64,000 nt of DNA from a virus. Its lineage: Duplodnaviria > Caudoviricetes. The stretch covers positions 35,701 through 99,700 of IMG/VR virus record IMGVR_UViG_3300027813_000007, one strand, 5' to 3'. The position numbers and the translations under genes are program-made. The notes beneath the pieces are model-generated. The model was not told the DNA's origin and did not search any database. It saw only the letters and a program-made list of their open reading frames with translations. Shown piece by piece: positions 12,259 to 41,418 of the stretch; position 1 is the first letter of the stretch; each line of letters begins with the position of its first letter.

Positions 12259-12286
12259 AAAATCTCACTTCGGTGAGATTTTTTTT
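12259..12286 (+). terminator. intrinsic terminator with UUCG loop
   Basis: AATCTCAC-TTCG-GTGAGATT-T6. Confidence 0.85.
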
Positions 12287-12296
12287 ACGTTTAATA

Positions 12297-12327
12297 TTTG
12301 CCTTTCTTATTTTTTTTACTATATTTG
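12297..12327 (+). promoter_or_regulatory. Bacteroidota sigma-A type promoter
   Basis: TTTG (12297) - 19 nt - TATATTTG (12320), matching the -33 TTTG / -7 TAnnTTTG consensus. Confidence 0.65.
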
Positions 12328-12341
12328 TTAAAAAGAAAATT

Positions 12342-15145: not shown

Positions 15146-16585
15146 GTGTATTTTAGGGATAACAATTATAGTGATGGTATTGATAGATTTATGGTTATTA
15201 CTGTTGCTACAGAAAATAATGAAGAGTTAGAAAGGTTTAGAGAATCATGTCATTACCATAATATACCTTATAAGATTTTAGGTTTAGGTCAAGAATGGAC
15301 AGGTGGTGAGGCTAAGAATGGAGTATTACTAAATCCAGGTGGCTCACAAAAAATTAACTTACTTAAAAAAGAATTACAAGATTATCCTGACTTAGGTAAT
15401 CACATTATACTTTTTACTGACTCATATGATGTGATTTTTAATGGGGACCCAAAAGAAATTGTTAGGAGATTTAGAGAAATGAATTCACCAATGGTATTCT
15501 CCGCTGAAAAAACATGTTGGCCTGATGACACATTAAAAGAAAAATACCCAAACTCACCAACAGAATATAAGTTTTTAAACTCAGGTGGGTTTATTGGATA
15601 TGGTGACCACATCTCAAAGTTAATTAATGAGGTTGAGGTGAGTAATGAGTATGATGACCAATTATATTATACTGAAAGATACTTCGAAGACTTAAAAGGA
15701 GATAAAAATATGATTTTAGATTATAATCAATTTTTGTTTCAAACAATGAACGAATCTTTAGATGATTTAACATTTATTAGTGGTAAAACCTTTAATAAGG
15801 TAACCAAACAGTTCCCATTAATATTACACGCTAATGGAGGTCCGATAGTTAAAAATGAGTTGAATAATTATTATAAAAAATTATTCAAAAAACCATTGAA
15901 TTTTAATTCGTTAAAAGTAGATGAAGATAAATCTAATATTAATATTATAAAAACAACATATGATATTACCATTGGTTTATTCTTAGATGAGAAAGTACCG
16001 GATATCAATCAGACTTTTGACCATATTAGGTTTTTAAATTATCCTAAGAAAAACACTATACTTCATATTACTTATAGTGATACTAGACATACTTACAAAG
16101 TTAATATGTTTAGTAAAAAATATTCCAAATTATTTAAAGATTTTAAAATTACTAAGCATAACGATGGAAAAATAACATCAAGAAAAAACTTCCTTATAAA
16201 TTCATATAATAAAACAGACTATGTTATTATGATGGAATCTAATCATATCTTTAGGAATATTAAATCTATACAATTATTACTTACCGAGTGTCAAGGTATT
16301 ATAACACCTATGATTCATAAAGAAGGGAGTGACTGGGTTAATTTTAATTCTAAAGAAAAAGATTTGTATAGGTCTTACAGTAAGAGTGGGGTGTGGGACG
16401 TGGAGAACACATTTGGTATACATATAATCCAAAATGATTTAATACCTTTCTGTGTTAGTTCACTTTATTTAGGTAGTAAAGACTATGAAGATGGTGATTG
16501 GGATATTTTACTAAGTAATAACTTAAAAACTTATGGTCATAGGACCCAAATGTCTAACACTAATTACTATGGTGGAATAATCTAA
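15146..16585 (+). CDS. PLOD/LH3-type collagen glycosyltransferase (GT + accessory domain, no hydroxylase domain)
   Basis: VITVATE, LGLGQEWTGG, GGSQKINLLK, LFTDSYDV, FSAEKTCWPD, FLNSGGFIG, DDQLYYT, LHANG are colinear with the PLOD N-terminal GT domain. Confidence 0.85.
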   Translation: MYFRDNNYSDGIDRFMVITVATENNEELERFRESCHYHNIPYKILGLGQEWTGGEAKNGVLLNPGGSQKINLLKKELQDYPDLGNHIILFTDSYDVIFNGDPKEIVRRFREMNSPMVFSAEKTCWPDDTLKEKYPNSPTEYKFLNSGGFIGYGDHISKLINEVEVSNEYDDQLYYTERYFEDLKGDKNMILDYNQFLFQTMNESLDDLTFISGKTFNKVTKQFPLILHANGGPIVKNELNNYYKKLFKKPLNFNSLKVDEDKSNINIIKTTYDITIGLFLDEKVPDINQTFDHIRFLNYPKKNTILHITYSDTRHTYKVNMFSKKYSKLFKDFKITKHNDGKITSRKNFLINSYNKTDYVIMMESNHIFRNIKSIQLLLTECQGIITPMIHKEGSDWVNFNSKEKDLYRSYSKSGVWDVENTFGIHIIQNDLIPFCVSSLYLGSKDYEDGDWDILLSNNLKTYGHRTQMSNTNYYGGII

Positions 16586-21433: not shown

Positions 21434-21718
21434 ATGAAAAAAGTAATACTTTACACAATGAAAGGATGTTCACATTGTGATGACATGAAAGAAAGTTTAA
21501 AAAAATCAAAAATTAAATTTATTGGTAGAGATATTGATAAATATAAAAAAGAGTATGATTTATTTGTTGAAGCGACAGGTAATGAATTTATACCTGCCTT
21601 TATGTTATTATCGGTTAACGAAAAAAATGAAACATCAGATGTTGTTTTAATGGTTCCTGATGATGACTTCGAAGATATTAATGAGGCGATGGTGAAAGTG
21701 AAACAATACTTAAAATAG
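21434..21718 (+). CDS. glutaredoxin-like protein
   Basis: LYTMKGCSHC; FIP loop. Confidence 0.8.
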   Translation: MKKVILYTMKGCSHCDDMKESLKKSKIKFIGRDIDKYKKEYDLFVEATGNEFIPAFMLLSVNEKNETSDVVLMVPDDDFEDINEAMVKVKQYLK

Positions 21719-22576
21719 TATCATTTCACCAACCTTATCTTTTATTTTCCAAACGTTGTGAGTACTAATAATTTCTTCTTCGAAATTATACTCATTTAAA
21801 TCCCATCGACTAATAATATCATTAGGGTTAAATGTAAATAAATCTAATATTAACGACTCTAACCATTCGGTGCTAGTAATTAAAGTATTCGATGTTACTT
21901 TAATAGTTAAATTCTCCCAACTAATTAAATCGAATTCGGACTCACTAAAGAACTCAACAGTTAAATCACTACACAATCCTCTTTCAAAAATATTATAAAC
22001 AATATAATTAAAGTACGACTCAAAAATTTTACTACTTTTTAAATTTTTACCATAATGTTGAGATGATTGAAATGTTTCAATAAGATTATTATTTTTGATA
22101 ATAACATAATCTTTAAAATTTTCTAAAACATCACCTACCGTTTCCTTATTAAAGTCATTCTTAGTTAAAATAAGATTTAGATTTGTACACGCGGTAAATC
22201 TATAGTCCTTACCATCCAAAGTATCTTCGTAGGTTTGTTTTTTTATTGACTCGATAAAATTATTTTTATTAAATGTTTTTTTAAAATAAATTGGTTCCTC
22301 AGAAATATTTTGACCATACTCAACTAGGTCAATAACATTTAAGTTTATTTTTCTACTAAATAATTTTTCATAATATGAAATAAATAATTTAGATAAATTT
22401 ATAGGTGTTTTATGAGTGGTATTACCTCTAACCACGATAAAGTTACCGTTATTGATTAGTTGTATGTTTGTTTTATGGTTTTTTGTTTCCTTATCTATCT
22501 CAGTAATTACTTTATTTACTAATAAATTTGCAAGATTTTCACCTCTTGAATAAGTTTCAATTATATAGTTTGACAT
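21710..22576 (-). CDS. degenerate S-adenosylmethionine synthetase (MetK)-like protein
   Basis: segments align by eye with MetK N- and C-domains (GNFIVVRGNTT; YGKN..YIVYNIFERGLC; LFTFNPNDIISRWDL); catalytic GHPDK and GGGAFSGKD motifs altered. Confidence 0.5.
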   Translation of the reverse strand: MSNYIIETYSRGENLANLLVNKVITEIDKETKNHKTNIQLINNGNFIVVRGNTTHKTPINLSKLFISYYEKLFSRKINLNVIDLVEYGQNISEEPIYFKKTFNKNNFIESIKKQTYEDTLDGKDYRFTACTNLNLILTKNDFNKETVGDVLENFKDYVIIKNNNLIETFQSSQHYGKNLKSSKIFESYFNYIVYNIFERGLCSDLTVEFFSESEFDLISWENLTIKVTSNTLITSTEWLESLILDLFTFNPNDIISRWDLNEYNFEEEIISTHNVWKIKDKVGEMILF

Positions 22577-22715: not shown

Positions 22716-25700
22716 ATGGCTAAAGACATTAAAATTGTACCACAACCGACAGGTACGACACTACCTTATATAATTTTTGAAAACACTAGTGGTGACATTA
22801 TTTCGTTGAATGTTAATAATGATGGTACTTTAGAATTTTCAGGTCAAACTCACGGTGGTAATTTAGTAGTTATTGGTGAGGATAGAACAAATATAAAAGG
22901 TTCGATTCGTTTGAGTAATGATATGTCATTTAATGGTGTTAGTACTATTACTGATACTGGAGGGTGGAAAGGAAGTGTCGTAGGTCTTAAAGGTAATATT
23001 GGACCCACAGGTGGTAGTGCCAATAAGGGTGAGCAAGGTATAACTGGTGGTGGTGGACCTATAGGTCTACAAGGTGCCGTAGGTTTACAAGGTTCAAAAG
23101 GAGCTAAAGGTGTACAAGGTGGTCGAGGAACACTTGGACCTATCGGTACATCCATAGTTGGTGAGGATGGTGATAAAGGATTAAAAGGTTTACAAGGACC
23201 AACATCAGGAGATAAAGGTAATCGTGGACCTACAGGTTCAACAGGTTTAAAAGGTGAGGTTGGTTTAAAAGGTGTTATAGGTGGTATAGCACAAACAGGT
23301 CTGATTGGTATACAAGGTGATGACTCTGATAAAGGTATTGTTGGTGATAAAGGTAGTAAGGGACTTAAAGGCCCACAAGGACCAAAAGGAGTCAAAGGTA
23401 TTAAAGGGTTAGAAGGTCAAAAAGGAATAATTGGACAACAAGGGCCAGTTTCTGAAGATGGGGTTATTGGGTATAAGGGTCTTAAAGGAGTGAAAGGACC
23501 ACAAGGACTAAAAGGACCTAAAGGTATAGATGGACCACAAGGACCAATAGGTCTAACATCATCAAAAGGACCAATAGGCCCACAAGGGCCAAAAGGACCT
23601 ACGGGTTTAAAAGGTTTAAAAGGTATTATAGGTATAAAGGGAGTAAAAGGGGTAAAAGGGGTAAAAGGAGTTGACGGACCAAAAGGGTTAATCGCTACTT
23701 CAGGAGACAAAGGACCACAAGGACCTTTAGGGACTAAAGGTGTTGAAGGAAATAAAGGAAATAAAGGATTAAAAGGAGTAGAAGGGACAAAAGGACCAAA
23801 AGGGTTTCAAGGTAATCAGCCGAATCCGAGTACTCAAGGGACCCAAGGTAGTCAAGGAATTCAAGGAGCAACATCAGTAGATGTGGGACCTATAGGTAAT
23901 AAAGGATTAAAAGGGGTTAAAGGTTTAAAAGGACCTAAACCAGGTAGAGGGATACAAGGACTACAAGGTAATATTGCTACTCAAGGACTAATAGGACCTA
24001 TCGGACCTAAAGGTGATGACATTGGAGATAAAGGACTTAAAGGAGTTAAAGGTAAAAAAGGAGTTAAAGGGATTGAAGGTGGTGATGGTCAAAAAGGTCA
24101 AAAAGGTCTTATTGCCCCACAAGGACCAACAGGTTTAAAAGGTTTAAGTGGTCCAATTGGGCCTAAAGGACCAAAAGGTAATAAAGGAGTTATTGGACCA
24201 AAAGGGCCGAAAAATGTTCAGGGTTCTATAGGTAATATAGGTAACCAAGCTATCGTAGGTAATAAAGGTGGACGTGGAGTAACTAGTAGTGACATCGGAA
24301 ATAAAGGTACTCAAGGTATTAAAGGTATTAAAGGTCTTAAAGGACCACAAGGACCTAATGGTCCTCAATCAAGTAATGGTATACGAGGAAATCAGGGACC
24401 ACAAGGTGATGGGACTAATCAAGGTCCAACATCAACAGATAAGGGACCTAAAGGTTTAAAAGGATTAAAGGGTCTGTTTTATACTGGTGCGGGACCTGTA
24501 GGTTTAAAGGGAGCACAAGGTCCAATAGGTGAAACAGGACCAAAAGGGTCGATAGGTAACACTGGAATATCCTCATCTAAAGGTCAAAGAGGCCCACAAG
24601 GTGACTTAAAAGGGTTAAAGGGTATAAAAGGACCGCAAGGAGGAACATCTTTAGATAAAGGTCAAAGAGGTTCACAAGGGGGTATAGGTGTACAAGCAGC
24701 CAAAGGACCAACAGGTTTAAGTAATAATGTAAGAGGTTTAACTGGTGACCAAGGTTTAATTGGGCCACAATCTACCGATAAAGGACAAAAAGGTCCACAA
24801 GGTGGATTGGGTAACCAAGCTCAAAAAGGTCTTAAAGGACCACAAGGCCCAACTAACTCAACTAAAGGACTTAAAGGACTTAAAGGGATTAAAGGTAAAA
24901 AGGGGACACAAGGAACAGGAGGACAACAAGGACCAAAAGGTACTACTTCAACAGTAAAAGGACAAAAAGGTATTACTGGAACTATCAAAGGTATTAAGGG
25001 TCTTAAAGGAGTAAAAGGACCAAAAGGTAATCAAGGGTCATTAGGTCCACAAGGAAGTATTGGTAATACCTCAACAGTAAAAGGTTTTATAGGACCAACT
25101 AACTCAACTAAAGGTATTAAGGGTCTTAAAGGAGTAAAAGGACCAAAAGGTAATCAAGGGTCATTAGGTCCACAAGGTGCAAGAGGGGTCGCTTCCACAG
25201 TAAAAGGTTTTATAGGACCAACTAACTCAACTAAAGGTATTAAGGGTCTTAAAGGAGTAAAAGGACCAAAAGGTAATCAAGGTACTCAAGGAGTAATAGG
25301 TTCACAAGGGTCAGCTTCAACATTAATGGGGCCAACAGGTCCAACTAGTAGTGAAAGAGGACCACAAGGACCACAAGGAGTTGATGGACCAAAAGGATTA
25401 AAAGGTTTTCGAGGACCACAAGGGGTAATAGGTGCAACTTCAACAGTAAAAGGACCACAAGGTCCAACTAACTCAACTAAAGGACTTAAAGGACTTAAAG
25501 GGATTAAAGGTAAAAAGGGGACACGAGGAACTATAGGTACACAAGGTGTGAGAGGTTTAATTGCGGGAGTAGGAGATAAAGGACTTAAAGGTCTTAGAGG
25601 TGTTTTAGGTCCACAAGGAGCAGTTGGACCACAAGGTTTAATTGGACCTCAATCTGCTGGAGGTGGTATCGGAGATACTGGACCTACAGGACCTAAAGGG

Positions 25701-26465
25701 CCAACTTCAACAGTAAAAGGATTTAAAGGACTTAAAGGAATTAAAGGACCACAAGGTAGTAGTGGTCAACAAGGATATCAAGGACCAACCGGAAATAATT
25801 CAACGGTTAAAGGGTATAAGGGACCACAAGGAACGGAAAAAGGTTTAAAAGGTTTAAAAGGGCAAACAGGACCCACAAGTACTGACAGAGGTCTACAAGG
25901 ACCACAAGGAACTAATTCAACCACTAAAGGTCCACGAGGTCCACAAGGACTAACTGGTGGGGGAGGACCAATAGGGCCAAAAGGTACCCAAGGTACAGCT
26001 GGAAGTATAGGACCAATAGGTAAAACAGGACCACAAGGTGTACAAGGTTCAAATGGTGGAGGAGGTTTAGGTGGTCCAACAGGTCCAATTGGTTTAATCG
26101 GCCCACAAGGTCTACAAGGTCCACAAGGTCCACAAGGACCGGCATCGGATAAGAGATTAAAAAATAATATTAAAACACTTAAAGGTAATTTAAGTAAATT
26201 AAAATTAATTAATGGGGTTAAGTTTACATGGAAAGGTGATGTTACTAAGTTTGATGGTGGAATAGGTAACGATATTGGATTTATTGCTCAAGATATTAGA
26301 GAAGTAATACCTGAAGTAGTATTTACTAGTGAAAGTGGTTACCTAAAACTTGAGTACGGCAAACTAGTGTCTATTGGTATTGGTTCTTTACAGGAACAAA
26401 ATACACGTATAGATAAAATAAAACTCAGAATTAACTTATTAAAATCAGAAATTTTAAATGGGTAA
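22716..26465 (+). CDS. giant collagen-like fibre protein A with C-terminal S74 intramolecular chaperone
   Basis: Gly-X-Y from aa ~90 to ~1143; [21 protein letters not shown]. Confidence 0.9.
24849..25524 (+). repeat. 123-nt-period internal repeat in collagen A; 61-nt exact duplication 615 nt apart
   Basis: CCAACTAACTCAACTAAAGG at 24849, 25095, 25218, 25464. Confidence 0.85.
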
Positions 26466-29400
26466 AGATATTAAAATAAACCCAACAGGGGGGACTATAA
26501 ATTTTTCAGGTGCTAGTAGTACTAAGATTAGTATTGATTATAGTGGCGGTGAATTAAATTTTAACACTCATTTAGGTAATGACTTTAAAATAAGTTCAAA
26601 CTTAGAGCTTGACAACATGAAGTTCATGCCTTCCGATTCGGTACAAATGGGAAATGGTAACGAATTAATTGATAATTTAGGTAATTGGAAAGGTTACCCT
26701 GTAAATTTACCTGGAACTAACGGAGATAAAGGTTTAAAGGGGTTATTAGGTAATAAAGGTGTACAGGGTAGTCAGGGTACACAAGGTATACGTGGTGAAC
26801 AAGGGTTAAAAGGTAATTTCGGTGACGATAAAGGTATTGTTGGAGATAAAGGATTTAAGGGTCTTAAGGGTACTAAGGGTAAAAAAGGTCCACAAGGAAC
26901 ACAAGGGACAACAGGTATAAAGGGGTTACGAGCATCAACAGGAGATGCAGGTCTACCGGGCCCTGATTCACAAAAGGGTTCTGTTGGACCAAAAGGTTTA
27001 AAAGGTTTAAAAGGTTTAAAAGGGTTAAAGGGGTTAATTGGTATTTCAGTCAATGGACCTACTGGTCTTGTTGCCAGTAAAGGGAGCCAAGGTCCTGTAG
27101 GGACTAATAAAGGAGAAGTTGGACTCAAAGGCACTGTAGGTATTAAAGGACCAAAAGGGTTATTAGGTCCACAAGCTAGTCAAGGGACTGATGGGTTAAA
27201 AGGTGACTTGGGAGATGAAGGACTCAAAGGGCTTACTAGTGATGATAAAGGTATTAAAGGTATAAAAGGATTAAAAGGATTAAAAGGACCTAAAGGGTCT
27301 AAAGGTCTTGATACGGATGACGGATTAAAAGGTGATGTAGGTCCAAAGGGTTCTGTTGGTGTAGACGGACCTATAGGTGATTTAAAAGGACCAAAAGGAC
27401 AGATTGGAGTTGTTGGACCTAAAGGGTTTAGAGGGAGTAACGGTTTAATTGGTGACTCACCTAAAGGTACCTTAGGTTCAGGAGGAGACAAAGGACCAGT
27501 AGGTAATAGAGGTATAACGTCTACAGATAAAGGTAGTAAAGGACTTAAAGGTCAGATAGGTAGTAAAGGGATTATCGGAGTAAAGGGACTTAAAGGTTTA
27601 ATTGCGTCACAAGGTAGCCAAGGACCAAAAGGTCCTATCGCAGACACTGGAGATATTGGTAATAAAGGTGATAAAGGATTAAAGGGGTTAAAAGGTAAAA
27701 AAGGTTTATTAGGTAATCAAGGACCACAAGGAAGCGTTGCCGACCAAGGACCAAAAGGACCAATTTCAGCAGATGGGGAAGGGGCCGACAAGGGTATTAA
27801 AGGTATAAAAGGAGTACAAGGACCAATAGGGCCAAAAGGTATTGATGGTTTGAAGGGACCGCAAGGTTCTACACCAACAGCTACATTAATAACTGCCAAT
27901 AGGAACTTACATTTAGATGCTACAGACCCGTTAAGTTATTCCGGAAGTGGAACATCGTGGTTTGACTTGTCATCAAGTAACAATGACGCAACATTAGTGG
28001 GTGGAGTTAACTTTAATGACACTAACTACATGGATTTTGACGGTGTTGAAGGCTCTTACGTACAATTAAGTTCTCAATCCACTATGAGTCGTAGTTCATC
28101 AACGATATGTATAGAATTATATAAAGACATCAGTAATAGTACTTTATTATGGGGTACCAATTATACTAATATGGTAGAAGTGAGAACGGGTTCTTTTTAT
28201 AGTGAGACAGCATCTAACTGCAATTATTTTAATTCGCCCGGGTTTACTTTTAATAACTCACAATGGTACCAATATACTATAGTTTTTAATAGTAGTAGTG
28301 CTTATCACTATATTGATGGTGGATATATAGGAGAAACCCCAAGTTACGGTAATGATAATTGTGGACCTGCAGTTACTTCATTAGTCGCTGATTTTGATTG
28401 GACTAGAATTGGTGAATCATCGGCATACAACCCTAACTTTAATGGTAGAATACGAAGGTTAATTCAATATACTACAGCATTTACCGCCGAACAAGTTTTA
28501 CAGAACTATGAGGCGATGTTAACATTACCTGGTGACCGTGGAGAAAAGGGTCAACGAGGTCCACAAGGAAATAAGGGTAATAAAGGACTTAAAGGTCTTA
28601 AGGGACTCAAAGGCGTAAAAGGACCTGGAGGCGATAAAGGTCTAATAGCTACACAAGGCCCAAAGGGTCCGATAGGTACTGATGGTGACCAAGGACCTAC
28701 AGGTAATAAAGGACTTAAAGGTTTTAAAGGTGAAAAAGGTCTTAAAGGTTATAAGGGTATTAAAGGTGTACAGGGACCAAAAGGTTTAATTGCTCCTTCA
28801 GGTGACCAAGGACCTATCGGACCCGATAGTACTAAAGGGTTAAAAGGATTAAAAGGGGCTGTAGGGTTTAAAGGGTTTAAAGGTAAGAAAGGATTAGAAG
28901 GACCAAAAGGGATTAAAGGTCTGAAGGGAGTAATAGGTGATAAAGGATTAATTAGTACGTTATCGGGACCAACAGGTACAAAAGGAGTTAAAGGTATTCG
29001 TGCGACTGACGGAGATAAAGGTTTTAAAGGTGTAAAAGGGTTTAAGGGACCACAAGGTGACGTAGGTAATAATTCTACAACTAAAGGTTATAAAGGATTA
29101 GAAGGACCAAAAGGTTTAAGGGCTACGGATGGATTAAAAGGTTCTAAAGGTTTAAAAGGTAGAAAAGGGATATTAGGTGATTTAGGACCACAAGGAACTA
29201 CTACAGGTCCAACAGGACCAACAGGTCTTCAGGGACCAACAGGTCCAATCGCATTTAAAGGATTAAAAGGACTAAAAGGTACAGACGGGAATATTGGACC
29301 AAAAGGACCAAAAGGGCTTATAACCCCATCATCAGGACCAATAGGTCCACAAGGAGATAATGGTCCAGCCGCGTTTAAAGGATTAAAAGGATTAAAAGGT

Positions 29401-31140
29401 GTTACAGGACTTAAAGGTCCTAAAGGACCACAAGGAACGACTACTGGCGCTCAGGGAGATAATGGTCCACAAGGAGATAATGGCCCAGCCGCGTTTAAAG
29501 GATTAAAAGGGATTAAAGGGCCAAAAGGGTATAAAGGTCCTAAAGGACCACAAGGAACGACTACTGGCGCTCAGGGAGATAATGGTCCTCAAGGAGATAC
29601 TGGTCCAATCGCATTTAAAGGGTTTAAAGGTATTAAAGGATTAAAAGGTGTTCGAGGTCCTCAAGGAACAAAAGGAGTTACTTCAACAGTAAAAGGATTT
29701 AAAGGACCAAAAGGACCAAATGGTTCAGTCGCAGATAAAGGATATAAAGGATATAAAGGACCTAAAGGACCTAAAGGACCTAAAGGACCACAAGGAACTA
29801 CTACAGGTCCAACAGGACCAACAGGTCTTCAGGGACCAACAGGTCCATCCGCTGATAAAGGAGTTAAAGGATTAAAAGGACCAGACGGGTATAAAGGTTT
29901 TACAGGACCAAAAGGACCAACATCAACAGATAAGGGAACTAAAGGTACAACAGGACCAAATTCAACATCAAAAGGACCAAAAGGGTTAAAAGGACCACAA
30001 GGTCCTTATGGGAATGCTGGTGTAAGAGGAGTAACAGGGTCTCAAAGTTCATCTGTAGGACCAACAGGTCCAACATCAACAGATAAAGGTTATAAAGGAC
30101 TTAAAGGTCCAAGAGGGGGTCAAGGTCCACAAGGTAATGGTGGACCAAAAGGACCAATAGGTAACCAAAGCTCGTCTGGGGGACCAACAGGTGAATTAGG
30201 TTCTCAAGGAACGTCTTCAACGGTTAAAGGTTATAAAGGGTTGACGGGTAATATAGGTCCCTCAGGTGATAAAGGTTTTAAAGGTGCCCGAGGAAATGAC
30301 GGGGGTCAAGGACTAAAAGGACCAAAAGGTAAATATGGGCCGCAAGGAACACAAGGAACAAAAGGACCTAAAGGACGAAAAGGTTTAATTGGTAGTCAAG
30401 GTATTCAAGGACCAGGCGGAGAGCAAGGTAGTGCAGGTAAAAAGGGTAGAAAAGGTTTAAAAGGACCTAAAGGCCCTACCGCAACAACTTGTTACGCACA
30501 TACAATACTCATACCAAGTGGAAAGGGTGTTAACTGTAATACTTGTCTTGGAACTGGAAATACTCCTTGTGGTCTTGGAACTACCGTTACACTTTATTCG
30601 AACACTTCAGGGGCGTTAAGTAGTTCTTCTTTTTTATATGATACTAATGCCTGTACCACCTGTAATACCAGTGGTCTTCCTCTTCAGTGTACTTTAACAA
30701 CAACTATAACTATATGGGACCAAGACCACGCAAATACGAATTTATATTCATGGAGTCACAGTGGTGTACCTAAAAGTAGTTGTGGTTTAAAAGTATGTGG
30801 AACTTGCAGTTTCTCAGATGAAAGAATGAAATCAGGTATTAGAACAATTTCTAATTCATTATATTCATTACTTAACATTAATGTTACTGAATATGATTGG
30901 AATGAAAAATATTCAGGTTATGATTTCTTAAAAGAAAGAAAACAATTACATTCGATTGGTATGGTAGCTCAAGAAATTAGAGAATTATTTCCTGAGGTAG
31001 TTTATAAAAGGGACGATGGTTATTTAGCTATTAAATATTATAAACTAAACGCATTAATTATTGAAGCGATTAAGACCCACCAACTATTTATTGAAGATAT
31101 CGAAGAACAAATAAACTGGTTAAGAACACAGATTGATTAA
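26458..31140 (+). CDS. giant collagen-like fibre protein B with inserted LamG/ConA-like domain, Cys-rich domain and S74 chaperone
   Basis: Gly-X-Y aa ~86-472 and ~692-1341; insert LHLDA..SYSGSG..WFDLS..FDG..W..YIDG..IG..FNGRI..EQVLQNY; 10-Cys segment; SDERMKSGI. Confidence 0.9.
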   Translation: MGKDIKINPTGGTINFSGASSTKISIDYSGGELNFNTHLGNDFKISSNLELDNMKFMPSDSVQMGNGNELIDNLGNWKGYPVNLPGTNGDKGLKGLLGNKGVQGSQGTQGIRGEQGLKGNFGDDKGIVGDKGFKGLKGTKGKKGPQGTQGTTGIKGLRASTGDAGLPGPDSQKGSVGPKGLKGLKGLKGLKGLIGISVNGPTGLVASKGSQGPVGTNKGEVGLKGTVGIKGPKGLLGPQASQGTDGLKGDLGDEGLKGLTSDDKGIKGIKGLKGLKGPKGSKGLDTDDGLKGDVGPKGSVGVDGPIGDLKGPKGQIGVVGPKGFRGSNGLIGDSPKGTLGSGGDKGPVGNRGITSTDKGSKGLKGQIGSKGIIGVKGLKGLIASQGSQGPKGPIADTGDIGNKGDKGLKGLKGKKGLLGNQGPQGSVADQGPKGPISADGEGADKGIKGIKGVQGPIGPKGIDGLKGPQGSTPTATLITANRNLHLDATDPLSYSGSGTSWFDLSSSNNDATLVGGVNFNDTNYMDFDGVEGSYVQLSSQSTMSRSSSTICIELYKDISNSTLLWGTNYTNMVEVRTGSFYSETASNCNYFNSPGFTFNNSQWYQYTIVFNSSSAYHYIDGGYIGETPSYGNDNCGPAVTSLVADFDWTRIGESSAYNPNFNGRIRRLIQYTTAFTAEQVLQNYEAMLTLPGDRGEKGQRGPQGNKGNKGLKGLKGLKGVKGPGGDKGLIATQGPKGPIGTDGDQGPTGNKGLKGFKGEKGLKGYKGIKGVQGPKGLIAPSGDQGPIGPDSTKGLKGLKGAVGFKGFKGKKGLEGPKGIKGLKGVIGDKGLISTLSGPTGTKGVKGIRATDGDKGFKGVKGFKGPQGDVGNNSTTKGYKGLEGPKGLRATDGLKGSKGLKGRKGILGDLGPQGTTTGPTGPTGLQGPTGPIAFKGLKGLKGTDGNIGPKGPKGLITPSSGPIGPQGDNGPAAFKGLKGLKGVTGLKGPKGPQGTTTGAQGDNGPQGDNGPAAFKGLKGIKGPKGYKGPKGPQGTTTGAQGDNGPQGDTGPIAFKGFKGIKGLKGVRGPQGTKGVTSTVKGFKGPKGPNGSVADKGYKGYKGPKGPKGPKGPQGTTTGPTGPTGLQGPTGPSADKGVKGLKGPDGYKGFTGPKGPTSTDKGTKGTTGPNSTSKGPKGLKGPQGPYGNAGVRGVTGSQSSSVGPTGPTSTDKGYKGLKGPRGGQGPQGNGGPKGPIGNQSSSGGPTGELGSQGTSSTVKGYKGLTGNIGPSGDKGFKGARGNDGGQGLKGPKGKYGPQGTQGTKGPKGRKGLIGSQGIQGPGGEQGSAGKKGRKGLKGPKGPTATTCYAHTILIPSGKGVNCNTCLGTGNTPCGLGTTVTLYSNTSGALSSSSFLYDTNACTTCNTSGLPLQCTLTTTITIWDQDHANTNLYSWSHSGVPKSSCGLKVCGTCSFSDERMKSGIRTISNSLYSLLNINVTEYDWNEKYSGYDFLKERKQLHSIGMVAQEIRELFPEVVYKRDDGYLAIKYYKLNALIIEAIKTHQLFIEDIEEQINWLRTQID
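29184..29847 (+). repeat. 120-nt-period internal repeat in collagen B; 64-nt exact duplication 600 nt apart
   Basis: GGACCACAAGGAAC.ACTAC at 29185, 29425, 29545, 29785. Confidence 0.85.
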
Positions 31141-34100
31141 TGGCTAATATAATAATATACCCTACTGGGAGTACTTTAAATACTAATCCACATATAATTT
31201 TTAGTGGTACAGGTGTGGACTATACTATTGAGATAGACACTACGGGAGATTTAATATTTAAATCTTCGACAGATATCTTTAAAATAGTTGATAGTACAAG
31301 TCCTCTATTATTGCCGGGTGAGGTTAATGTGGTTAATAGTGAATTATATGTTGGGACAACTATGGTTGTTAATTCTAGTGGTGATTGGGTTGGTGATACA
31401 CATAACCTAAAAGGGTATAAGGGATTAAAAGGTGGACAAGGACCAACAGGTACAAAAGGTAATACTGGGATTAAGGGACAGAGCGGAGCCAAAGGATTAG
31501 AAGGTCGAAAAGGTGAAAAAGGTGTTGATGGACCACAAGGACCAACAGGTGGACAAGGTCCAACAGGTAATGATTCTGAAAAAGGTCAAAAAGGTTTTTT
31601 AGGTCGTGAAGGGACTAAAGGGTCTGTAGGACCAAAAGGTTTAAAAGGTGATAAACCATCAAATAGAAGTCAAGGTATAAAGGGACCTACAGGTCCAAAA
31701 GGTCCGACATCTACGGATACAGGCACAAAAGGACCAATAGGTTTAAAAGGTATTAAAGGTTTAAAGGGTTTAAAACCATCTCAAGGACCACAAGGCGAAA
31801 TTGGAGGGGACTCACCCCAAGGACCTACAGGACCAAAAGGACCAACATCACCTGATAAGGGAGAGAAAGGGATTAAAGGAGTTAAGGGACTAAAAGGTGT
31901 TAGAGGTGTACTTGGTACGCAAGGACCACAAGGAGGAAAAGGTGTTAGAGCTACAGACGGTGACACAGGACCACAAGGACCTACCGGACCAAACACAGAT
32001 ACCGGACCAATAGGTTCAAAAGGGGTAAAAGGTTTAACTGGTCCACAAGGAGAAATAGGACCTGATGGGGTTATAGGTATTCAAGGACCGCAAGGACCGA
32101 CAGGACCAAGAGGTACTCAATCTACAGATAAAGGAGATAAAGGTTTAAAAGGATTAAAGGGTGTTACAGGTATTAAAGGACCTAAAAATACACAAGGTAA
32201 TATAGGTATACAGGGCGAAAAAGGTTTAATCGCGTCTCAAGGAGATATTGGACCTGATGGTCCCGTATCAGTAAAAGGACCAACCGGGCCAAAAGGACCA
32301 GTAGGACCAAAAGGATTAAAAGGTTTAAAAGGGGTTATAGGTGATTCACCTAAAGGTAGTTTAGGTTCAGGAGGAGACCAAGGACCAAAAGGACCTACAA
32401 GTACGGATAAAGGAACTAAAGGATTAAAAGGTTTAATTGGTATAAAGGGGATTAAAGGGATAATAGGTTCACAATCTACCGCCTCAGTCGGTGATAAAGG
32501 ACCGCAAGGGCCGACAGGTTTAATAGGGGAAACATCGACAGATAAAGGTATTAAGGGTATACAAGGACCTAAAGGGTCTGTAGGACCAAAAGGTTTAAAA
32601 GGGGCCATTGGTTTAAATGAAAAAGGTTTCATTGGTGACACCGCAGATAAAGGACCACAAGGACCTACAAGTACGGATAAGGGACAACAAGGAGATACAG
32701 GAATTGGTGGACCAAAAGGATTAAAAGGTATAACTGGTGAACAAGGCATATCCCCAAAAGGGGCAGTAGGTACAATAGGTCCTGCAGGTCCGGTTGCATT
32801 AAAAGGCCCAACTTCAACAGATAAGGGACCAATAGGTATTAAAGGACCTGTAGGACCAAAGGGGTTGAGAGGTACCTTAGGACCACAAGGACTATCAATA
32901 AAAGGACCAAAAGGTCCACAAGGACCGGTAGGGTCAACAACAACAGATAAAGGGTTTAAGGGACCACAAGGACCAAATGGTCCAACAAATACAGATAAGG
33001 GTGAACAAGGACCTAAGGGGCCAAGAGGAATACAAGGAACCCAAGGAGGTATAGGTGATGGAGGACCGAAAGGATTGACGGGGTCGGGAGGACCAACAGG
33101 TCCAACTTCAACAGACAAAGGACAAAAAGGCCCACAAGGACCTAACATAGGACCAAAAGGACCAACTGGACCACAAGGACCAAAAGGTCCAAAAGGGATT
33201 ACAAACACTACATCAGGAGACCAAGGCCCAACAAGTACTGACCAAGGACCAAAAGGTCCAAAAGGTATTAAAGGTATTCAAATTGGTAGAGGACCTCAAG
33301 GGGCTGAGGGACTTAAAGCAACCCAAGGACCAAAAGGACCAACTGGACCACAAGGTAATAATGGTACAGATAAAGGACCACAAGGTGAAAAAGGACCACA
33401 AGGTATTCAAGGACCACAAGGGGTGGTTGGAACTAAAGCTAGTACCGGAGCAGCAGGACCAACAGGTCCAAAAGGTAATACTAGTACTGAAAGAGGTCCA
33501 CAAGGTATTAAAGGTATTCAAATTGGTATAGGACCACAAGGTGTGGTTGGACCTAAAGCCGGTACTGGAGCAGTAGGACCAACAGGGCCAACAGGACCCA
33601 ATAGTAGTGATAGAGGACCACAAGGTATTAAAGGTGTTCAAATTGGTAGAGGACCACAAGGGGTAGTTGGGGCTAAAGCCAGTACAGGTGCAGGGGGAGA
33701 TAAAGGACCGCAAGGACCGGTGGGTAATGTTAAAGGACTAAAAGGTGTAAAAGGACCAAAAGGACCACAAGGACCTATAGGTCCAAAAGGTTCTATCTTA
33801 TCTCAAGGCGCATCAGGACCAGCAGGACCAGCAGGTCCAAATAGTTTGGACCCAGGACCTACAGGTATTAAAGGTATTCAAATTGGTAGAGGACCTCAAG
33901 GGGCTGAGGGACTTAAAGCAACTAATGGTGCAGTAGGACCAACAGGACAAGCGGGTAATACTAGTACAGACAAAGGAAATAAAGGATTAATTGGTACTCA
34001 AGCACCATCAGGACCTACAGGTATTAAAGGGCAAATTGGTCCACAAGGACCCACTGGTCCCACAGCATTTAAAGGGGATAAAGGTCGTAAAGGTCAAAAA

Positions 34101-34880
34101 GGTTATGTTGGCTCGAGAGGTAATCAAGGAGGGATAGGAATTCAAGGACCTAAAGGACCTCTAGCCGATAAAGGTTTAAAAGGTTATAAAGGTATTACTT
34201 CAACAGTAAGAGGACCACAAGGACCTACAGGTGTAAGAGGAACACAAGGAACACAAGGAACAAAAGGTAAAAAAGGAATACGAGGACCACAAGGACCAGT
34301 AGGGTTAAATGGGCCAGCTGGTTTTGATGGAGCATTAGGACCTGATGGGGATAAAGGTTTTAAAGGTCGTAAAGGTCCACAAGGACCAGTAGGTACAAAA
34401 GGATTAAAAGGAATCCCAGGACTGGAAGGGCCTGCTGGAGCTAAAGGTTCAACAGGTGCAAAAGGAATAAAGGGTAAAAAAGGTTCACAAGGACCACAAG
34501 GTGCGCAAGGTGACCAAGGACCAACAGGACCAATAGGTAGTTCTTCAGATAGAAGATTAAAGATTAATATTAAAAAGATTGATACCCCATTAGATAAAGC
34601 TCTAAATTTAAGAGGTGTAGAATTTATATGGAGAAAAGAAGGTATAAATGGTGAAATATTACAAGAAGGTGGCAGAAAAGATATTGGTGTTATTGCTCAA
34701 GAAATAAAAGAAGTTTTACCTGAGCTAGTACATGGTGATGAGGAACATGGTTATAGAGTTAGATATGATGAAATGATATCAATTTTATTTGAAGCTATAA
34801 AAGAACAAGAATCAATTTTGGAGACTCAAGAGGTTAGTTTAACTGAATTAGAGAATACGTTTAAACGTAATCAACAATAA
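31140..34880 (+). CDS. giant collagen-like fibre protein C with C-terminal S74 chaperone
   Basis: Gly-X-Y aa ~92-1135; [21 protein letters not shown]. Confidence 0.9.
33263..33922 (+). repeat. 120-nt-period internal repeat in collagen C; 60-nt exact duplication 600 nt apart
   Basis: AGGTATTAAAGGT.TTCAAATTGGTA at 33263, 33503, 33623, 33863. Confidence 0.85.
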
Positions 34881-35907
34881 AATCATTAAGATTTTTTCTC
34901 ACCATATCGGAATCGGCATAATCATGATACCTATTATCCAAAGATGACCCTTCAATAACATCCTCATTAATCATTTCTTTAGTAAGGTCTTCAAAGTCAC
35001 CCCAGTGTTCAAATACATTACGATAATCATCGTCTTGGTATTCATCGTTAAAAATTGAACTAAATAGGTAAGGTATAAACTTAGTTACGTCTATAGTGTA
35101 ATCATATATAACTTTAACTCCTTCGCTGTTTTTAATTTCCTTACTCACCCAATCACCTGAATTATCTATTTCTAATAAATGTTTAATTTCAGACATAACT
35201 TCATTATATCTTTCATCAACATAAGCGGTATTATAGGAGTTATGGTGTAAATTGTATAGGTTACTTGCGACTTCGGATGATTCATCTAATAAAACTTTAG
35301 ATGATGACTCATCTTCTTCTAAGATATCCATAACTAAAAGAGGGTCTTTTACATCGACATAGTCAGGATGACCTTGGTCCTTGGCAATATTCTCTAATAA
35401 CTCAGTTTCGGGTGAAATTAATTCACCAGATAAATCAGTAGATAATGATTTAGCGACTAAGAATTTATTTTTTTCAGTTAACTCTTCAATAACATCCGTA
35501 TATAGGTTTGAAGTAACATCGTTAAATGGTTCAAACCAATCTTCCCCTAAAATATTTTTAACCATTTCAGATGAACTCATATCTCGACCATTATCATCAT
35601 CTTTAAAAAAGATACTAAGGTCAGACATAGTATTGAGAATTAAAATATATTTATCGCCTACTTTTTTAATGTCACTATATTGACCAACTATTTCATCTAT
35701 GGTCTTAAGTTTGTTATTACGATACTTGTATTTTAAGTATGACATTGGAAATAACTCTAAAAGAGTTTCGTTACTTCCTTCATCTAATAGACCAAGTTTA
35801 GATAACACTTCTAAAAAATTATACTTATCATCATTAAAATAACGAGTAATAAATGATTCGAGCTCTGATTGACCACCATTAAGTAATTCAATAATTTTTT
35901 CTTTCAT
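34861..35907 (-). CDS. hypothetical acidic protein
   Basis: 348-aa ORF; TATTTATA upstream (35923-35930, minus strand). Confidence 0.7.
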   Translation of the reverse strand: MKEKIIELLNGGQSELESFITRYFNDDKYNFLEVLSKLGLLDEGSNETLLELFPMSYLKYKYRNNKLKTIDEIVGQYSDIKKVGDKYILILNTMSDLSIFFKDDDNGRDMSSSEMVKNILGEDWFEPFNDVTSNLYTDVIEELTEKNKFLVAKSLSTDLSGELISPETELLENIAKDQGHPDYVDVKDPLLVMDILEEDESSSKVLLDESSEVASNLYNLHHNSYNTAYVDERYNEVMSEIKHLLEIDNSGDWVSKEIKNSEGVKVIYDYTIDVTKFIPYLFSSIFNDEYQDDDYRNVFEHWGDFEDLTKEMINEDVIEGSSLDNRYHDYADSDMVRKNLNDFIVDYV

Positions 35908-40485: not shown

Positions 40486-41418
40486 ATGAGTCTACAAAAT
40501 CCTAAAGATGTTAATGTAACCGACAATACTGTATCGGTTATATTAGCGGGTGGTTTAGGTAATATGATGTTCCAGGCAGCGACCTTAATGGTCTATGCTA
40601 AAGAAATGGGTTACGACCCATTAATAGGTTATTGGACAACACACCAATCAGAAAGTTCTAAGTTTAATGTACACCTTAATCGAAATGGTAGAAATATACA
40701 TTTTGACCCATGGGGTGGACACCTATTAAAAGACCCACATATCTCATTTGGAGATGTTTACCCTCAACTTCCTTGGTTCGATAGTCGACCTAATGCCTTT
40801 AATTGGTGGTTTGACCAAAGTCTTGGATGGGATATTGATACGGGTGAGGGAGGTGTTTATTATGACTTAAAACAAAAAGTTAAACCACCATATCTATTTC
40901 AAGGTTATTTTTTTAATAAATTATATTGGCACCATCAACGAGATTATATCTTAAATTTATTTAATCCAGATAAAAATATAACCAATTATATTGAATATAA
41001 TTATGGGGAATTATTTGATAAAAGTATTTCACTACATTTACGAATGGGTGGTGGTAGACAAGATAACTTTTTTAATATACCTAAAATACCTGGTGAGTGG
41101 GTTGGTAAAATATTAAATGAGTATGGGGAGGACCATAAAGTGTTAGTGTTTTCAGATAACTTAGAGTTAGCCAAAAATTTCGTAGACACTTTAGGTTTCC
41201 CTAATCATAAATTTGTTTATATTGATGAAGACCCCTATATTGCGGTTCACATGATGAGTATGTGTGATAGACATATTTTATCTAACTCGACACTATCATT
41301 TTGGGGAGCATACCTTGATAAGAAGCAAGAAAATGAGTATACTTTCATACATGAGACTTTTTTCGAAAGACATCCTCACAGTATGATACCTTACGATAAA
41401 TGGAAAATTAATTATTAA
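40486..41418 (+). CDS. alpha-1,2-fucosyltransferase-like glycosyltransferase (GT11)
   Basis: GGLGNMMFQ, QGYF, SLHLRMG, FSDN, MSMCDRHILSNSTLSFWGAYL. Confidence 0.85.
   Translation: MSLQNPKDVNVTDNTVSVILAGGLGNMMFQAATLMVYAKEMGYDPLIGYWTTHQSESSKFNVHLNRNGRNIHFDPWGGHLLKDPHISFGDVYPQLPWFDSRPNAFNWWFDQSLGWDIDTGEGGVYYDLKQKVKPPYLFQGYFFNKLYWHHQRDYILNLFNPDKNITNYIEYNYGELFDKSISLHLRMGGGRQDNFFNIPKIPGEWVGKILNEYGEDHKVLVFSDNLELAKNFVDTLGFPNHKFVYIDEDPYIAVHMMSMCDRHILSNSTLSFWGAYLDKKQENEYTFIHETFFERHPHSMIPYDKWKINY

What the first reader, a model, noticed from the sequence alone, without database searches (positions are those of the whole stretch)
22716..34880. Three tandem giant collagens with matched helix length: candidate heterotrimeric ~300 nm phage collagen fibre
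Seen: three translationally coupled genes with homologous N-termini (MAKDIKIVP / MGKDIKINP / MANIIIYP ... G.W.G) and C-terminal S74 chaperones. By manual count the Gly-X-Y lengths are ~1054 (A), ~1037 (B, two segments of ~387 and ~650 around an insert) and ~1044 (C), within about 2% although the sequences have diverged. Established: S74 domains trimerise fibres; animal fibrillar collagens have ~1000-residue (~300 nm) helices and are often heterotrimers; characterised prokaryotic and viral collagens are generally treated as homotrimers. Inference: the three chains co-assemble as an A:B:C triple helix, with only chain B supplying a lectin knob and a Cys-rich tip.
Basis: partly seen in the sequence, partly recalled or inferred. 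Interest (0 to 1): 0.88.

Follow-up and report, generated by a model that had tools for sequence, protein, structure and literature searches.

The report
Length-matched collagen fibre trio in phage
A group of uncultured marine T4-like giant phages carries three neighbouring genes for very long collagen-like fibres whose lengths always match within a genome, though they range from about 690 to 1400 residues between genomes. The three therefore work as one length-matched set, but they probably do not wind together into a single mixed triple helix.

Summary
Three overlapping genes (22716-26465, 26458-31140, 31140-34880, + strand) each encode a shared N-terminal domain, about 1040-1054 residues of Gly-X-Y, and a Peptidase_S74 chaperone domain.

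In 27 distinct related loci the collagen lengths of neighbouring genes track each other (r = 0.99, median difference 1%, overall range 685-1408 aa; 0 of 100000 shuffles were as tight). There are 11 complete trios. Orthologues differ by 0, 1 or 2 copies of a ~40-aa repeat unit, and the change is the same in all three genes, although the paralogues are only 66-74% identical in DNA. This points to selection on matched length.

The A:B:C heterotrimer reading is poorly supported. Each chain has 41-62 interruptions, mostly frame-shifting. With chain ends flush, only 14-44% of helix glycines are in register in all three chains, no better than chains rotated at random. An in-phase arrangement was available to evolution and is not used.

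My best reading is three homotrimeric fibres that act as one length-registered set, possibly side by side. Only B carries a tip. The fibres are probably glycosylated on hydroxylysine by a conserved LH3/R699-like transferase. The host virus has a T4-type capsid gene and a genome of about 300 kb.

The parts
22716..26465 (+). Gene A: collagen-like fibre protein, 1249 aa. N-domain 22716-22982, interrupted Gly-X-Y region 22983-26144 (residues 90-1143), S74 chaperone domain 26145-26462. There is no domain between the collagen and S74.
26458..31140 (+). Gene B: collagen-like fibre protein, 1560 aa. N-domain 26458-26712; collagen segment 1 26713-27873 (residues 86-472); collagen segment 2 28531-30480 (residues 692-1341); Cys-rich 111-aa domain 30481-30813; S74 30814-31137.
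27874..28530 (+). ConA-like lectin (Laminin_G_3) domain inserted into B's collagen (residues about 473-691). It is absent from the 90.5%-identical B of the twin record G006, where Gly-X-Y simply continues.
31140..34880 (+). Gene C: collagen-like fibre protein, 1246 aa. N-domain 31140-31412, collagen 31413-34544 (residues 92-1135), S74 34545-34877. There is no domain between the collagen and S74.
15146..16585 (+). LH3/PLOD3- and mimivirus-R699-like collagen glycosyltransferase (GT plus accessory domain, no hydroxylase domain). The DSYDV metal-binding motif aligns with LH3. It is conserved in 5 of 5 related records searched.
21710..22576 (-). 288-aa protein of unknown function, the conserved left flank of the collagen cassette (66-97% identical in relatives).
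34861..35907 (-). 348-aa protein of unknown function, the conserved right flank. In relative G003 its homologue lies directly beside the 288-aa gene with no collagen genes between them.
40486..41418 (+). Family-11 glycosyltransferase-like protein (fucosyltransferase family), another candidate fibre-glycosylation gene near the cassette.

Best explanation
**Proposed mechanism.** Each of the three genes makes its own homotrimeric, heavily interrupted collagen-like fibre of about 300 nm. Its C-terminal S74 intramolecular chaperone trimerises the chain, nucleates folding from the C-terminal uninterrupted run (24, 28 and 37 triplets), and then cuts itself off. The three fibres share a homologous N-terminal anchor domain. 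They are mounted together on a T4-like marine jumbo phage as one set whose lengths must match. The most likely reason is that they run side by side or are tied at both ends, as strands of one cable. Only B supplies a distal Cys-rich tip, and in this genome also a lectin knob. Lys fills the Y position of 36-50% of triplets. It is probably hydroxylated and glycosylated by the conserved LH3/R699-like transferase together with phage 2OG oxygenases.

**Shown here:** gene structure, domain content, the conserved trio, length co-variation, coordinated repeat-copy changes, lack of a common Gly register, and the neighbouring modification genes.

**Inferred:** homotrimer state, S74 cleavage, virion location, lateral association, and glycosylation.
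For: **Length coupling**
- Of 79 loci scanned, 71 have a collagen ORF and 42 have at least two complete ones. These give 27 distinct length sets.
- Gene 1 versus gene 2 gives r = 0.9875, with a median difference of 11 aa (1.0%) across a range of 686-1406 aa. None of 100000 permutations was as tight.
- There are 11 complete trios with a within-set range of 5-22 aa.
- A first five-lineage test gave 6 of 14400 permutations as tight.

**Coordinated change between orthologues**
- Relative to G005, G004 lacks one repeat unit and the window lacks two, in each of A (41-aa unit), B (40 aa) and C (38-40 aa).

**Not gene conversion**
- Paralogue DNA is only 66-74% identical over long alignments. In the window only short matches are found.

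**Presence or absence as a unit**
- G003 has the two flanking genes adjacent with no collagen genes between them.
- The 99%-complete record G013 has exactly three S74 matches, all in the trio.

**Against a shared helix, and therefore for homotrimers**
- Pairwise gapless Gly register is 0.33-0.51 at best, against a median of 0.28.
- Three-chain register with flush ends is 0.14-0.44, against a random-rotation mean of 0.16-0.29. In L177 a rotation can reach 0.80, but the real arrangement gives 0.44.
- The S74 paralogues are only 30-34% identical, which is consistent with orthogonal trimerisation tags.
- In G001 and G002 the first half of the C-type N-domain heads a separate two-lectin protein of 647/656 aa. 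The N-domain is therefore a portable anchor module.

**Hint of axial alignment between fibres**
- The three chains share a lineage-specific repeat period (80, 132 or 141 aa).
- They are offset by about a third of that period: 26/28/26, 43/48/41 and 45/51/45.

**Modification genes**
-.

**Virus type**
- Gp23 capsid matches at E 4e-63 and 2e-62.
Against: - Nothing here shows that the fibres touch each other. Side-by-side packing is an inference from matched length and the shared, phase-shifted periodicity.
- The third-of-a-period offset could be a frozen accident of how the paralogues arose. The repeat units have an internal roughly three-fold substructure, and the cyclic order A-B-C is the same in all sub-clades, so these are not independent events.
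- Homotrimeric A and C fibres would have no distal domain at all after S74 cleavage. This is unlike the other giant collagen-S74 proteins seen, where 10 of the 11 listed carry a non-collagen C-terminal part before S74. That oddity is more naturally explained by a heterotrimer.
- The homotrimer specificity of these S74 domains rests on what is known of the family. It was not tested.
- A triple helix interrupted every ~23 residues has no characterised precedent, so even triple-helix formation is an assumption.
- One locus breaks the match: L164 has 1406 vs 1276. It is 99.9% identical to L159 (1406 vs 1408) apart from one clean 132-aa unit. It is therefore either an assembly collapse or a real variant.
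Confidence: 0.5

Rival explanations
1. A:B:C heterotrimer. One chain of each gene winds into a single ~300 nm triple helix, selected by a hetero-specific S74 trimer. Chain B loops out the lectin and the single Cys-rich tip.
For: - This model explains matched lengths and the invariable set of three.
- It fits the overlapping start and stop codons, which suit 1:1:1 synthesis.
- Exactly one of the three chains carries the Cys-rich tip in every lineage examined, while A and C end directly in S74.
- Inserted globular domains leave the summed collagen length equal to that of the partner chains. Examples are 154+224+729 = 1107 vs 1130, 336+1072 = 1408 vs 1406, and 53+1110 = 1163 vs 1159/1153.
- N- and C-terminal modules are permuted between genes in G001 and G002, yet each type stays present once.
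Against: - With ends flush (within 6 residues) only 14-25% of helix Gly are in register in all three chains in 8 of 10 trios (32% and 44% in the other two). This is no better than random rotation.
- In G001 each interruption level has two of the three chains carrying a 2-residue insertion. By my own frame-counting on the G001 pattern, that keeps a valid one-residue stagger in only about one of six segments.
- Chains with identical repeat designs are a third of a period out of phase, although the in-phase arrangement would give a near-perfect common register.
- B has 111 residues between collagen and S74 that A and C lack.
- All three chains are strongly basic (K 11.6-12.7%, D+E 3.6-6.5%), so there is no charge complementarity.
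Confidence: 0.13
2. Three independent homotrimeric fibres that never touch. Equal length is selected for a different reason, for example all must reach the same distance from a common anchor ring, or form a halo of uniform depth that raises encounter rate in dilute seawater.
For: - The evidence for length coupling and for homotrimers is the same as for the best explanation.
- The homologous N-domains suggest equivalent anchor sites.
- The cassette is dispensable at this locus in a relative, as expected for accessory fibres.
Against: - A 1% tolerance over a two-fold range of lengths is tighter than a shared-reach requirement would seem to need for flexible fibres.
- This model does not explain why the three paralogues keep the same lineage-specific repeat period and a fixed phase offset.
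- It does not explain why two of the three fibre types have no distal domain.
Confidence: 0.25
3. The length match is a by-product of concerted evolution (gene conversion between the tandem paralogous repeat arrays), with no selection on length and no joint function.
For: Within a genome the three genes share a lineage-specific repeat design (80, 132 or 141 aa) that differs between lineages. This shows past exchange or co-evolution. Modules have been swapped between genes in G001 and G002.
Against: - Paralogue arrays are only 66-74% identical in DNA, with no long near-identical tracts.
- In the window's lineage the three genes have different unit sequences (41, 40 and 38-40 aa) yet changed copy number in step: 0, 1 or 2 units fewer in all three.
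- Conversion between repeat arrays would be expected to scatter copy number, not hold 27 sets within about 1%.
Confidence: 0.05

Closest known systems
Phage tail fibres and spikes with a C-terminal Peptidase_S74 intramolecular chaperone (endosialidase type; homotrimers, from my own knowledge of the family)
   Same: There is a C-terminal S74 domain above the Pfam cut-off in all three proteins. Its first residues are Ser-Asp (SDKRLK, SDERMK, SDRRLK) and it follows an elongated trimer-type region. Hundreds of phage contigs carry related S74 domains.
   Different: A and C have no distal domain between the fibre shaft and S74. Three paralogues sit in tandem with coupled lengths. The shaft is collagen-like and over 1000 residues long.
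Other giant collagen-S74 proteins of uncultured phages (loci L011, L036, L038, L029)
   Same: They have very long interrupted Gly-X-Y regions (up to a 1911-aa span in a 2125-aa protein) ending in S74, often as two neighbouring genes.
   Different: Their neighbouring genes are not length-matched (spans 1658/1232, 1602/1202, 1911/1277). Their N-termini are unrelated. Each of those ending in S74 carries a non-collagen C-terminal part before S74.
Complement C1q (three tandem genes A, C and B; collagen regions of matched length; A:B:C heterotrimer driven by the C-terminal globular domains).
   Same: Three neighbouring paralogous genes, matched collagen lengths, and a C-terminal trimerisation domain.
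   Different: As I recall, the single C1q interruption lies at the same level in the chains. Here 41-62 interruptions per chain do not share a register. The C-terminal domain here belongs to a self-cleaving chaperone family known for homotrimers.
Mimivirus collagen-like proteins with their lysyl hydroxylase/glycosyltransferase L230 and glucosyltransferase R699
   Same: This is a virus-encoded set of several collagen-like genes plus a collagen-type glycosyltransferase. The window's ORF 15146-16585 matches R699 (PDB 9dyt, E 4.7e-38) and human LH3 (E 1.6e-53). Lys is abundant at the Y position. Mimivirus collagen hydroxylation and glycosylation are mentioned in PMC8968730 (passage). For PMC9546862 and PMC12279948 I saw only the listing and the start of the abstract.
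   Different: This is a tailed T4-like phage of bacteria, not a giant virus of amoebae. The collagens end in S74 domains. No hydroxylase domain is fused to the GT, only separate small 2OG oxygenase ORFs. No length coupling has been reported for the mimivirus genes in what I read.
Bacterial collagen-like proteins (Scl, Bcl)
   Same: Gly-X-Y proteins without Y-position proline, with non-collagen trimerisation domains. They are described as homotrimers (PMC8968730, passage).
   Different: Those are far shorter and largely uninterrupted (recalled). The same review describes phage collagens as about 18 residues long, so proteins of this size are outside what it covers.

Membership tests
Collagen triple helix repeat (PF01391) | Long runs of Gly-X-Y scoring above the family threshold | tested here: met
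   E 2.5e-82, 4.9e-107 and 2.4e-85 against a cut-off of 27.2 bits. There are 288-298 triplets in runs of three or more per protein.
Collagen triple helix repeat (PF01391) | Actual formation of a triple helix | not testable with these tools
   Interruptions occur about every 23 residues, which makes this an open question. It needs CD, EM or a solved structure.
Peptidase_S74 intramolecular chaperone | C-terminal domain matching the family above threshold, beginning at a conserved Ser | tested here: met
   52.9, 42.4 and 57.0 bits against a cut-off of 22. All three domains begin with an invariant S-D-x-R-x-K.
Peptidase_S74 intramolecular chaperone | Trimerisation of the upstream region followed by self-cleavage; homotrimer specificity | not testable with these tools
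A single complex-prediction job could not compare ABC with AAA, BBB and CCC, so it was not run.
Heterotrimeric collagen (C1q or animal type) | Distinct chains of matched collagen length encoded together | tested here: met
   11 trios have a within-set range of 5-22 aa across lengths of 685-1163 aa. Across 27 pairs r = 0.9875.
Heterotrimeric collagen (C1q or animal type) | A common Gly register, with interruptions at matching levels in the chains | tested here: not met
   Three-chain register with flush ends is 0.14-0.44, equal to random rotation. Pairwise best values are 0.33-0.51 in the window's lineage. Chains with the same repeat design are a third of a period out of phase.
Heterotrimeric collagen (C1q or animal type) | A chain-selecting non-collagen domain shown to form the mixed trimer | not tested
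   The S74 paralogues are 30-34% identical. Their specificity is unknown.
LH3/PLOD GT domain, R699-type collagen glycosyltransferase (neighbouring gene) | GT_PLOD domain with the Asp-x-x-Asp metal site | tested here: met
   PF25342 at E 6.2e-73. The protein aligns to LH3 residues 14-451, and query DSYDV lies over LH3 DSYDV. Enzyme activity was not tested.
T4-like (Gp23 capsid) tailed phage | Gp23-family major capsid gene in the genome | tested here: met
   Matches in relatives G005 (E 4.1e-63) and G013 (E 2.3e-62). There is none in the 34%-complete own record. A tail sheath match is weak (E 1.2e-6, below cut-off), and Terminase_6C was not found.

The most novel reading that the evidence does not exclude
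The three gene products form one physical fibre whose axial register is written in the genes. Three homotrimers would run as strands of a nine-chain cable with flush ends. Each strand would carry the same periodic pattern of helix interruptions, shifted by a third of the period, so that weak points never coincide. This would be a virus-encoded counterpart of staggered collagen fibril packing. The alternative is a non-canonical mixed A:B:C helix. Either way it would be the first collagen assembly outside animals with enforced chain-length matching.
Probability: 0.35. Interest if true: 0.9.

Novelty: new variant of a known kind. Interest (0 to 1): 0.8.

Why it matters
Collagen-like proteins of bacteria and phages are treated as simple homotrimers. 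One review I read (PMC8968730, passages) describes phage collagens as about 18 residues long.

Here a whole clade of abundant marine jumbo phages encodes three collagens of about 700 to 1400 residues whose lengths are held equal to about 1% while the absolute length drifts two-fold. This is a natural experiment showing that length is being measured between different chains.

It makes a long-standing question directly testable in a bacterial virus: how collagen chains are matched, registered and packed.
- The phage system offers orthogonal S74 trimerisation tags.
- It shows natural domain insertions into the helix.
- It has a compact LH3/R699-like modification system.

It also points to a new, very long fibre apparatus on uncultured T4-like phages of the ocean, which is relevant to how they find hosts.

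Tried and rejected
- **Closest cultured phage.** Megablast of 10 kb next to the cassette against 50,697 phage records gave no match. tblastn of the A N-domain gave no match. No cultured relative could be named.
- **N-domain fold.** A profile search of PDB gave nothing better than E 0.22. The AF2 model with 15 sequences had pLDDT 64.9, too poor for a fold search, so none was run. The Atlas feature search gave only scores of 0.86 or less, with weak hints to T4 fibre domains. I treat these as leads only.
- **T4 fibre or socket genes.** Searches for Phage_T4_gp36 and T4_gp9_10_N in G013, G005 and G000 found nothing. The control genomes were also silent, so these searches are uninformative.
- **Terminase_6C.** No match.
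- **First alignment of the three N-domains.** It was too divergent for a locus scan. I used the S74 alignment and orthologue alignments instead.
- **Extending metagenome loci through genome handles.** Not possible, because those records are not held. I obtained further complete trios from a viral-contig scan instead.
- **Interruption coincidence within 2 residues at zero offset.** In the window's lineage it was not clearly above other offsets (ranks 3 to 64 of 121). I therefore dropped an apparent by-eye alignment of interruption levels in the repeat region.
- **Effective length counted in axial triplets.** It matches no better than raw length.
- **Charge complementarity between chains.** None was found.
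- **Complex prediction.** Not run. One job cannot compare ABC with AAA, BBB and CCC, and S74 paralogues would be expected to co-fold by likeness to solved trimers, so a result would not have moved the odds.
Full report
**1. What is in the window**

A's stop overlaps B's start by 8 nt. B's stop overlaps C's start by 1 nt.

Pfam finds Collagen (E 2.5e-82, 4.9e-107, 2.4e-85) and a C-terminal Peptidase_S74 domain (E 4.4e-14, 8.4e-11, 2.4e-15) in all three. B also has a Laminin_G_3 lectin domain at residues 532-680.

The N-terminal ~90 residues are distantly homologous (25-39% identity, pairwise E 1.5e-7 to 8e-4). The S74 domains are 30-34% identical. Only B has a 111-residue, 10-Cys stretch between collagen and S74. 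A and C run straight from Gly-X-Y into the Ser-Asp that opens the S74 domain.

The collagen regions are not continuous. A has 45 interruptions, B has 41 plus the lectin insert, and C has 48.
- Most are 3-residue (Gly replaced) or 4-residue (STDK, STVK, NSTK) interruptions.
- 21-27 per chain shift the Gly frame.
- The mean uninterrupted stretch is 6-7 triplets.

**2. The virus**

The window is bases 35701-99700 of a 99.7-kb virus record judged 34% complete. G+C is about 30%.

Relatives reach 297 kb at 99% completeness (G013). G005 and G013 carry a T4 Gp23-type capsid gene (E 4e-63 and 2e-62). A sheath match is weak.

No cultured phage among 50,697 records has the N-domain or nearby DNA. Related contigs come from marine metagenome collections (names). 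This is therefore an uncultured clade of marine T4-like jumbo phages.

**3.

Scans with the S74 alignment, the flanking 288-aa protein and the A-type N-domain brought in about 80 loci of the clade. I scanned 79 of them, counting the window.
- 71 have at least one collagen ORF.
- 42 have two or more complete ones.
- These give 32 distinct length sets, or 27 after merging pairs that are the first two members of a listed trio.

Neighbouring genes match in every set but one.
- The correlation is r = 0.9875.
- The median difference is 11 residues (1.0%), while gene-1 lengths run from 686 to 1406.
- None of 100000 permutations gave as small a mean difference (15.9 observed against about 134 expected).

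The 11 complete trios are:

| Collagen spans of the three genes (aa) |
|---|
| 686 / 685 / 690 |
| 862 / 869 / 864 |
| 1026 / 1023 / 1018 |
| 1052 / 1053 / 1057 |
| 1054 / 1037 / 1044 (window) |
| 1054 / 1043 / 1044 |
| 1091 / 1073 / 1080 |
| 1125 / 1106 / 1109 |
| 1130 / 1108 / 1123 |
| 1130 / 1110 / 1125 |
| 1163 / 1159 / 1153 |

Rows dropped before the count were ORFs open at a locus end and frames broken by stops (L112 gene B, all of L186, L142, L118, among others; all are listed). One pair in the 27 (1130/1125, L112) is really A and C of a record whose B is broken.

The single mismatch is L164 (1406 vs 1276). It is 99.9% identical to L159 (1406 vs 1408) apart from one clean deletion of a 132-residue repeat unit, and gene 1 is identical in DNA. 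It is either a collapsed repeat in assembly or a rare variant.

Other phages with giant collagen-S74 genes do not show matching (spans 1658/1232, 1602/1202, 1911/1277).

**4. How the lengths change**

Orthologues in the window, G004 and G005 are 56-67% identical across the collagen region with few gaps. The exception is the internal tandem-repeat zone at about 70-88% of the length. Compared with G005:

| Gene | Missing in G004 | Missing in the window |
|---|---|---|
| A | 41 residues | 41 + 42 |
| B | 40 | 80 |
| C | 38 | 38 + 40 |

One and two repeat units are therefore lost (or gained) in step in three genes whose units differ in sequence.

Paralogue DNA identity is only 66-74% even where the repeat design is shared. 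In the window only short matches exist. Recent gene conversion therefore cannot explain the match. Selection on equal length can.

The cassette also behaves as a unit. In G003 the homologues of the two flanking genes lie side by side with no collagen genes between them.

Globular inserts come and go without disturbing the sum.
- The window's lectin (about 213-219 aa) is absent from the 90.5%-identical B of its twin G006, whose collagen is 1043 against 1037.
- Other lineages have one or two inserts in B, A or the third gene, yet summed collagen still matches the partners.

**5. One mixed helix or three homotrimers?**

A triple helix needs Gly at every third position of all three chains at each level. 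I tested this in several ways.
- Gapless pairwise alignment over 181 offsets puts at most 33-51% of helix Gly in register in the window's lineage, against a median of 0.28.
- With the ends flush within 6 residues, the share of helix Gly in register in all three chains is 0.14 (window), 0.14-0.25 in seven other trios, and 0.32 and 0.44 in the two most regular ones. Chains rotated at random give means of 0.16-0.29.
- In L177 a rotation can reach 0.80, so a common register was available to evolution and is not used.

In the lineages whose three chains share the same repeat design, the chains are displaced by about a third of the period when anchored at the N-terminal start (pictured for G001).

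| Lineage | Repeat period (aa) | Offsets between chains (aa) |
|---|---|---|
| G001, G002 | 80 | 26 / 28 / 26 |
| G011, G013 | 132 | 43 / 48 / 41 |
| L177, L179 | 141 | 45 / 51 / 45 |

In G001 this places two of the three chains' 2-residue insertions at each level in the cyclic order C+A, C+A, A+B, A+B, B+C, B+C. By my own frame-counting on the G001 pattern, a valid one-residue stagger then survives in about one of six segments. That agrees with the measured 0.20.

Further points against one helix:
- B's extra 111 residues before S74.
- No charge complementarity, since all three chains are strongly basic.
- In G001 and G002 the first half of the C-type N-domain heads a separate 647/656-aa protein with Laminin_G_3 domains, while the second half heads the third collagen.

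- Exactly one chain in three carries the Cys-rich tip in every lineage.
- A and C have no distal domain, unlike other giant collagen-S74 proteins.
- N- and C-terminal modules are permuted between genes in G001 versus G002, yet each type stays present once.

From my own knowledge, natural heterotrimers such as C1q tolerate a single unmatched interruption. The register argument therefore weighs heavily but is not absolute.

**6. Best reading**

I read the locus as three homotrimeric fibres, each trimerised by its own diverged S74 tag. They act as one length-registered set on the virion. The shared lineage-specific period and the fixed phase offset suggest that the fibres are aligned axially, possibly as strands of one cable with staggered weak points. 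B would provide the only distal tip. I give this 0.5.

For the rivals I give:
- independent fibres with equal reach, 0.25;
- an A:B:C heterotrimer, 0.13;
- a neutral by-product of concerted evolution, 0.05.

The phase offset may be a frozen accident. The units have an internal roughly three-fold substructure, and the cyclic order is the same in all sub-clades, so these are not independent events.

**7. Modification genes**

Six kb upstream, ORF 15146-16585 carries a PLOD GT domain (E 6.2e-73).
- It aligns with human LH3 residues 14-451 (E 1.6e-53), with the DSYDV metal motif conserved.
- It also aligns with mimivirus R699 (E 4.7e-38).
- It has no hydroxylase domain.
- A homologue is present in 5 of 5 related records searched.

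Small 2OG-Fe(II) oxygenase ORFs occur in 5 of 5 records. In the window's own record the ORF lies outside the window.

Lys fills the Y position in 100 of 255, 131 of 262 and 89 of 245 G-x-y-G triplets of A, B and C. Pro at Y occurs 0-1 times. Hydroxylysine-linked glycosylation, as described for mimivirus collagen, is therefore a reasonable inference. Other glycosyltransferases lie near the cassette: family 11 in the window, and family 17 plus a weak fucosyltransferase-like match in G001. Weaker homologues of the GT exist in cultured cyanophages, annotated as hypothetical.

**8. What is in print**

- Sullivan et al. 2005 (PMC1079782, passages read) list Gly-X-Y ORFs of T4-like cyanophages as candidate tail fibres.
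- Full-text searches did not list any paper describing length-matched tandem collagen genes in phages. The searches combined collagen-like with jumbo phage, bacteriophage with heterotrimer and intramolecular chaperone, collagen with Peptidase_S74 and phage, and marine, jumbo, myovirus and tail fiber. Subscription journals are not covered.
- Supplementary files were not consulted.

**9. Verdict**

This is a new variant of phage collagen-like S74 fibres with an unexplained and experimentally accessible length-matching rule.

Noticed in passing
window 15146-16585 (+): A 479-aa homologue of the GT plus accessory domains of human LH3/PLOD3 and of mimivirus collagen glucosyltransferase R699. It has the DSYDV motif and no hydroxylase domain. 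It is conserved beside the collagen cassette in 5 of 5 relatives. In G001 and G002 it is 693-696 aa, with the GT match split in two pieces.
   Followed up: partly
window 22983-34544 (collagen regions of A, B and C): Lys occupies the Y position in 36-50% of triplets, and Pro is essentially never at Y (0-1 cases) but is common at X. The 4-residue interruptions are Ser/Thr-rich (STDK, STVK, NSTK), which may be further glycosylation sites.
   Followed up: partly
relatives L177, L179, L106/L107 (G001/G002), L184/L185 (G011/G013): All three collagen genes of a genome share one lineage-specific repeat period (141, 80 or 132 aa). They are displaced from one another by about a third of that period, always in the cyclic order A, B, third gene. 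The cause is unknown.
   Followed up: partly
L106 (G001) and L107 (G002): N-terminal modules and C-terminal modules (three S74 types; the Cys-rich domain travels with one of them) are combined differently in the two genomes, and gene order differs. Even so, each module type is present once and lengths stay matched.
   Followed up: partly
L106:7208-9148 (-) and L107:6375-8342 (+): In these relatives the first ~45 residues of the C-type N-domain head a separate 647/656-aa protein with Laminin_G_3 lectin domains. The second half of that N-domain heads the third collagen gene about 260 nt downstream. This is either a split of the ancestral gene or, in the window's lineage, a fusion.
   Followed up: partly
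L093 (G003) 8835-10858: A more distant relative has the homologues of the cassette's two flanking genes directly adjacent, with no collagen genes between them.
   Followed up: no
L112 (G010) 4807-10129; L186 (G012): Collagen genes are broken into two or three frames in otherwise near-identical records. These are probably assembly or sequencing errors in repeats, or possibly real frameshifts.
   Followed up: no
window 1981-2790, 10777-11727, 19588-20724, 51182-52243, 12273-13268, 42094-42963: The phage encodes a sigma-70-type factor, a full DnaJ, a glutamine-synthetase-like protein, thymidylate synthase and two DNA methyltransferases (D12 class and N6_N4).
   Followed up: no
window 43722-46100 (+): A 792-aa protein with a peptidoglycan-binding domain and a GH19 lysozyme/chitinase-like domain at its C-terminal end. 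Its large N-terminal part has no match. It may be a virion-associated lysin.
   Followed up: no
L011, L029, L036, L038: Unrelated uncultured phages encode collagen-S74 proteins of up to 2125 aa with two to five collagen segments separated by ~120-aa spacers. They often occur as two neighbouring genes of different length.
   Followed up: no
G000:C1:24148-24381 (outside the window, upstream): A 220-aa ORF matching the prolyl-4-hydroxylase-type 2OG-Fe(II) oxygenase family. It is a candidate for the missing hydroxylase of the collagen modification pathway.
   Followed up: no
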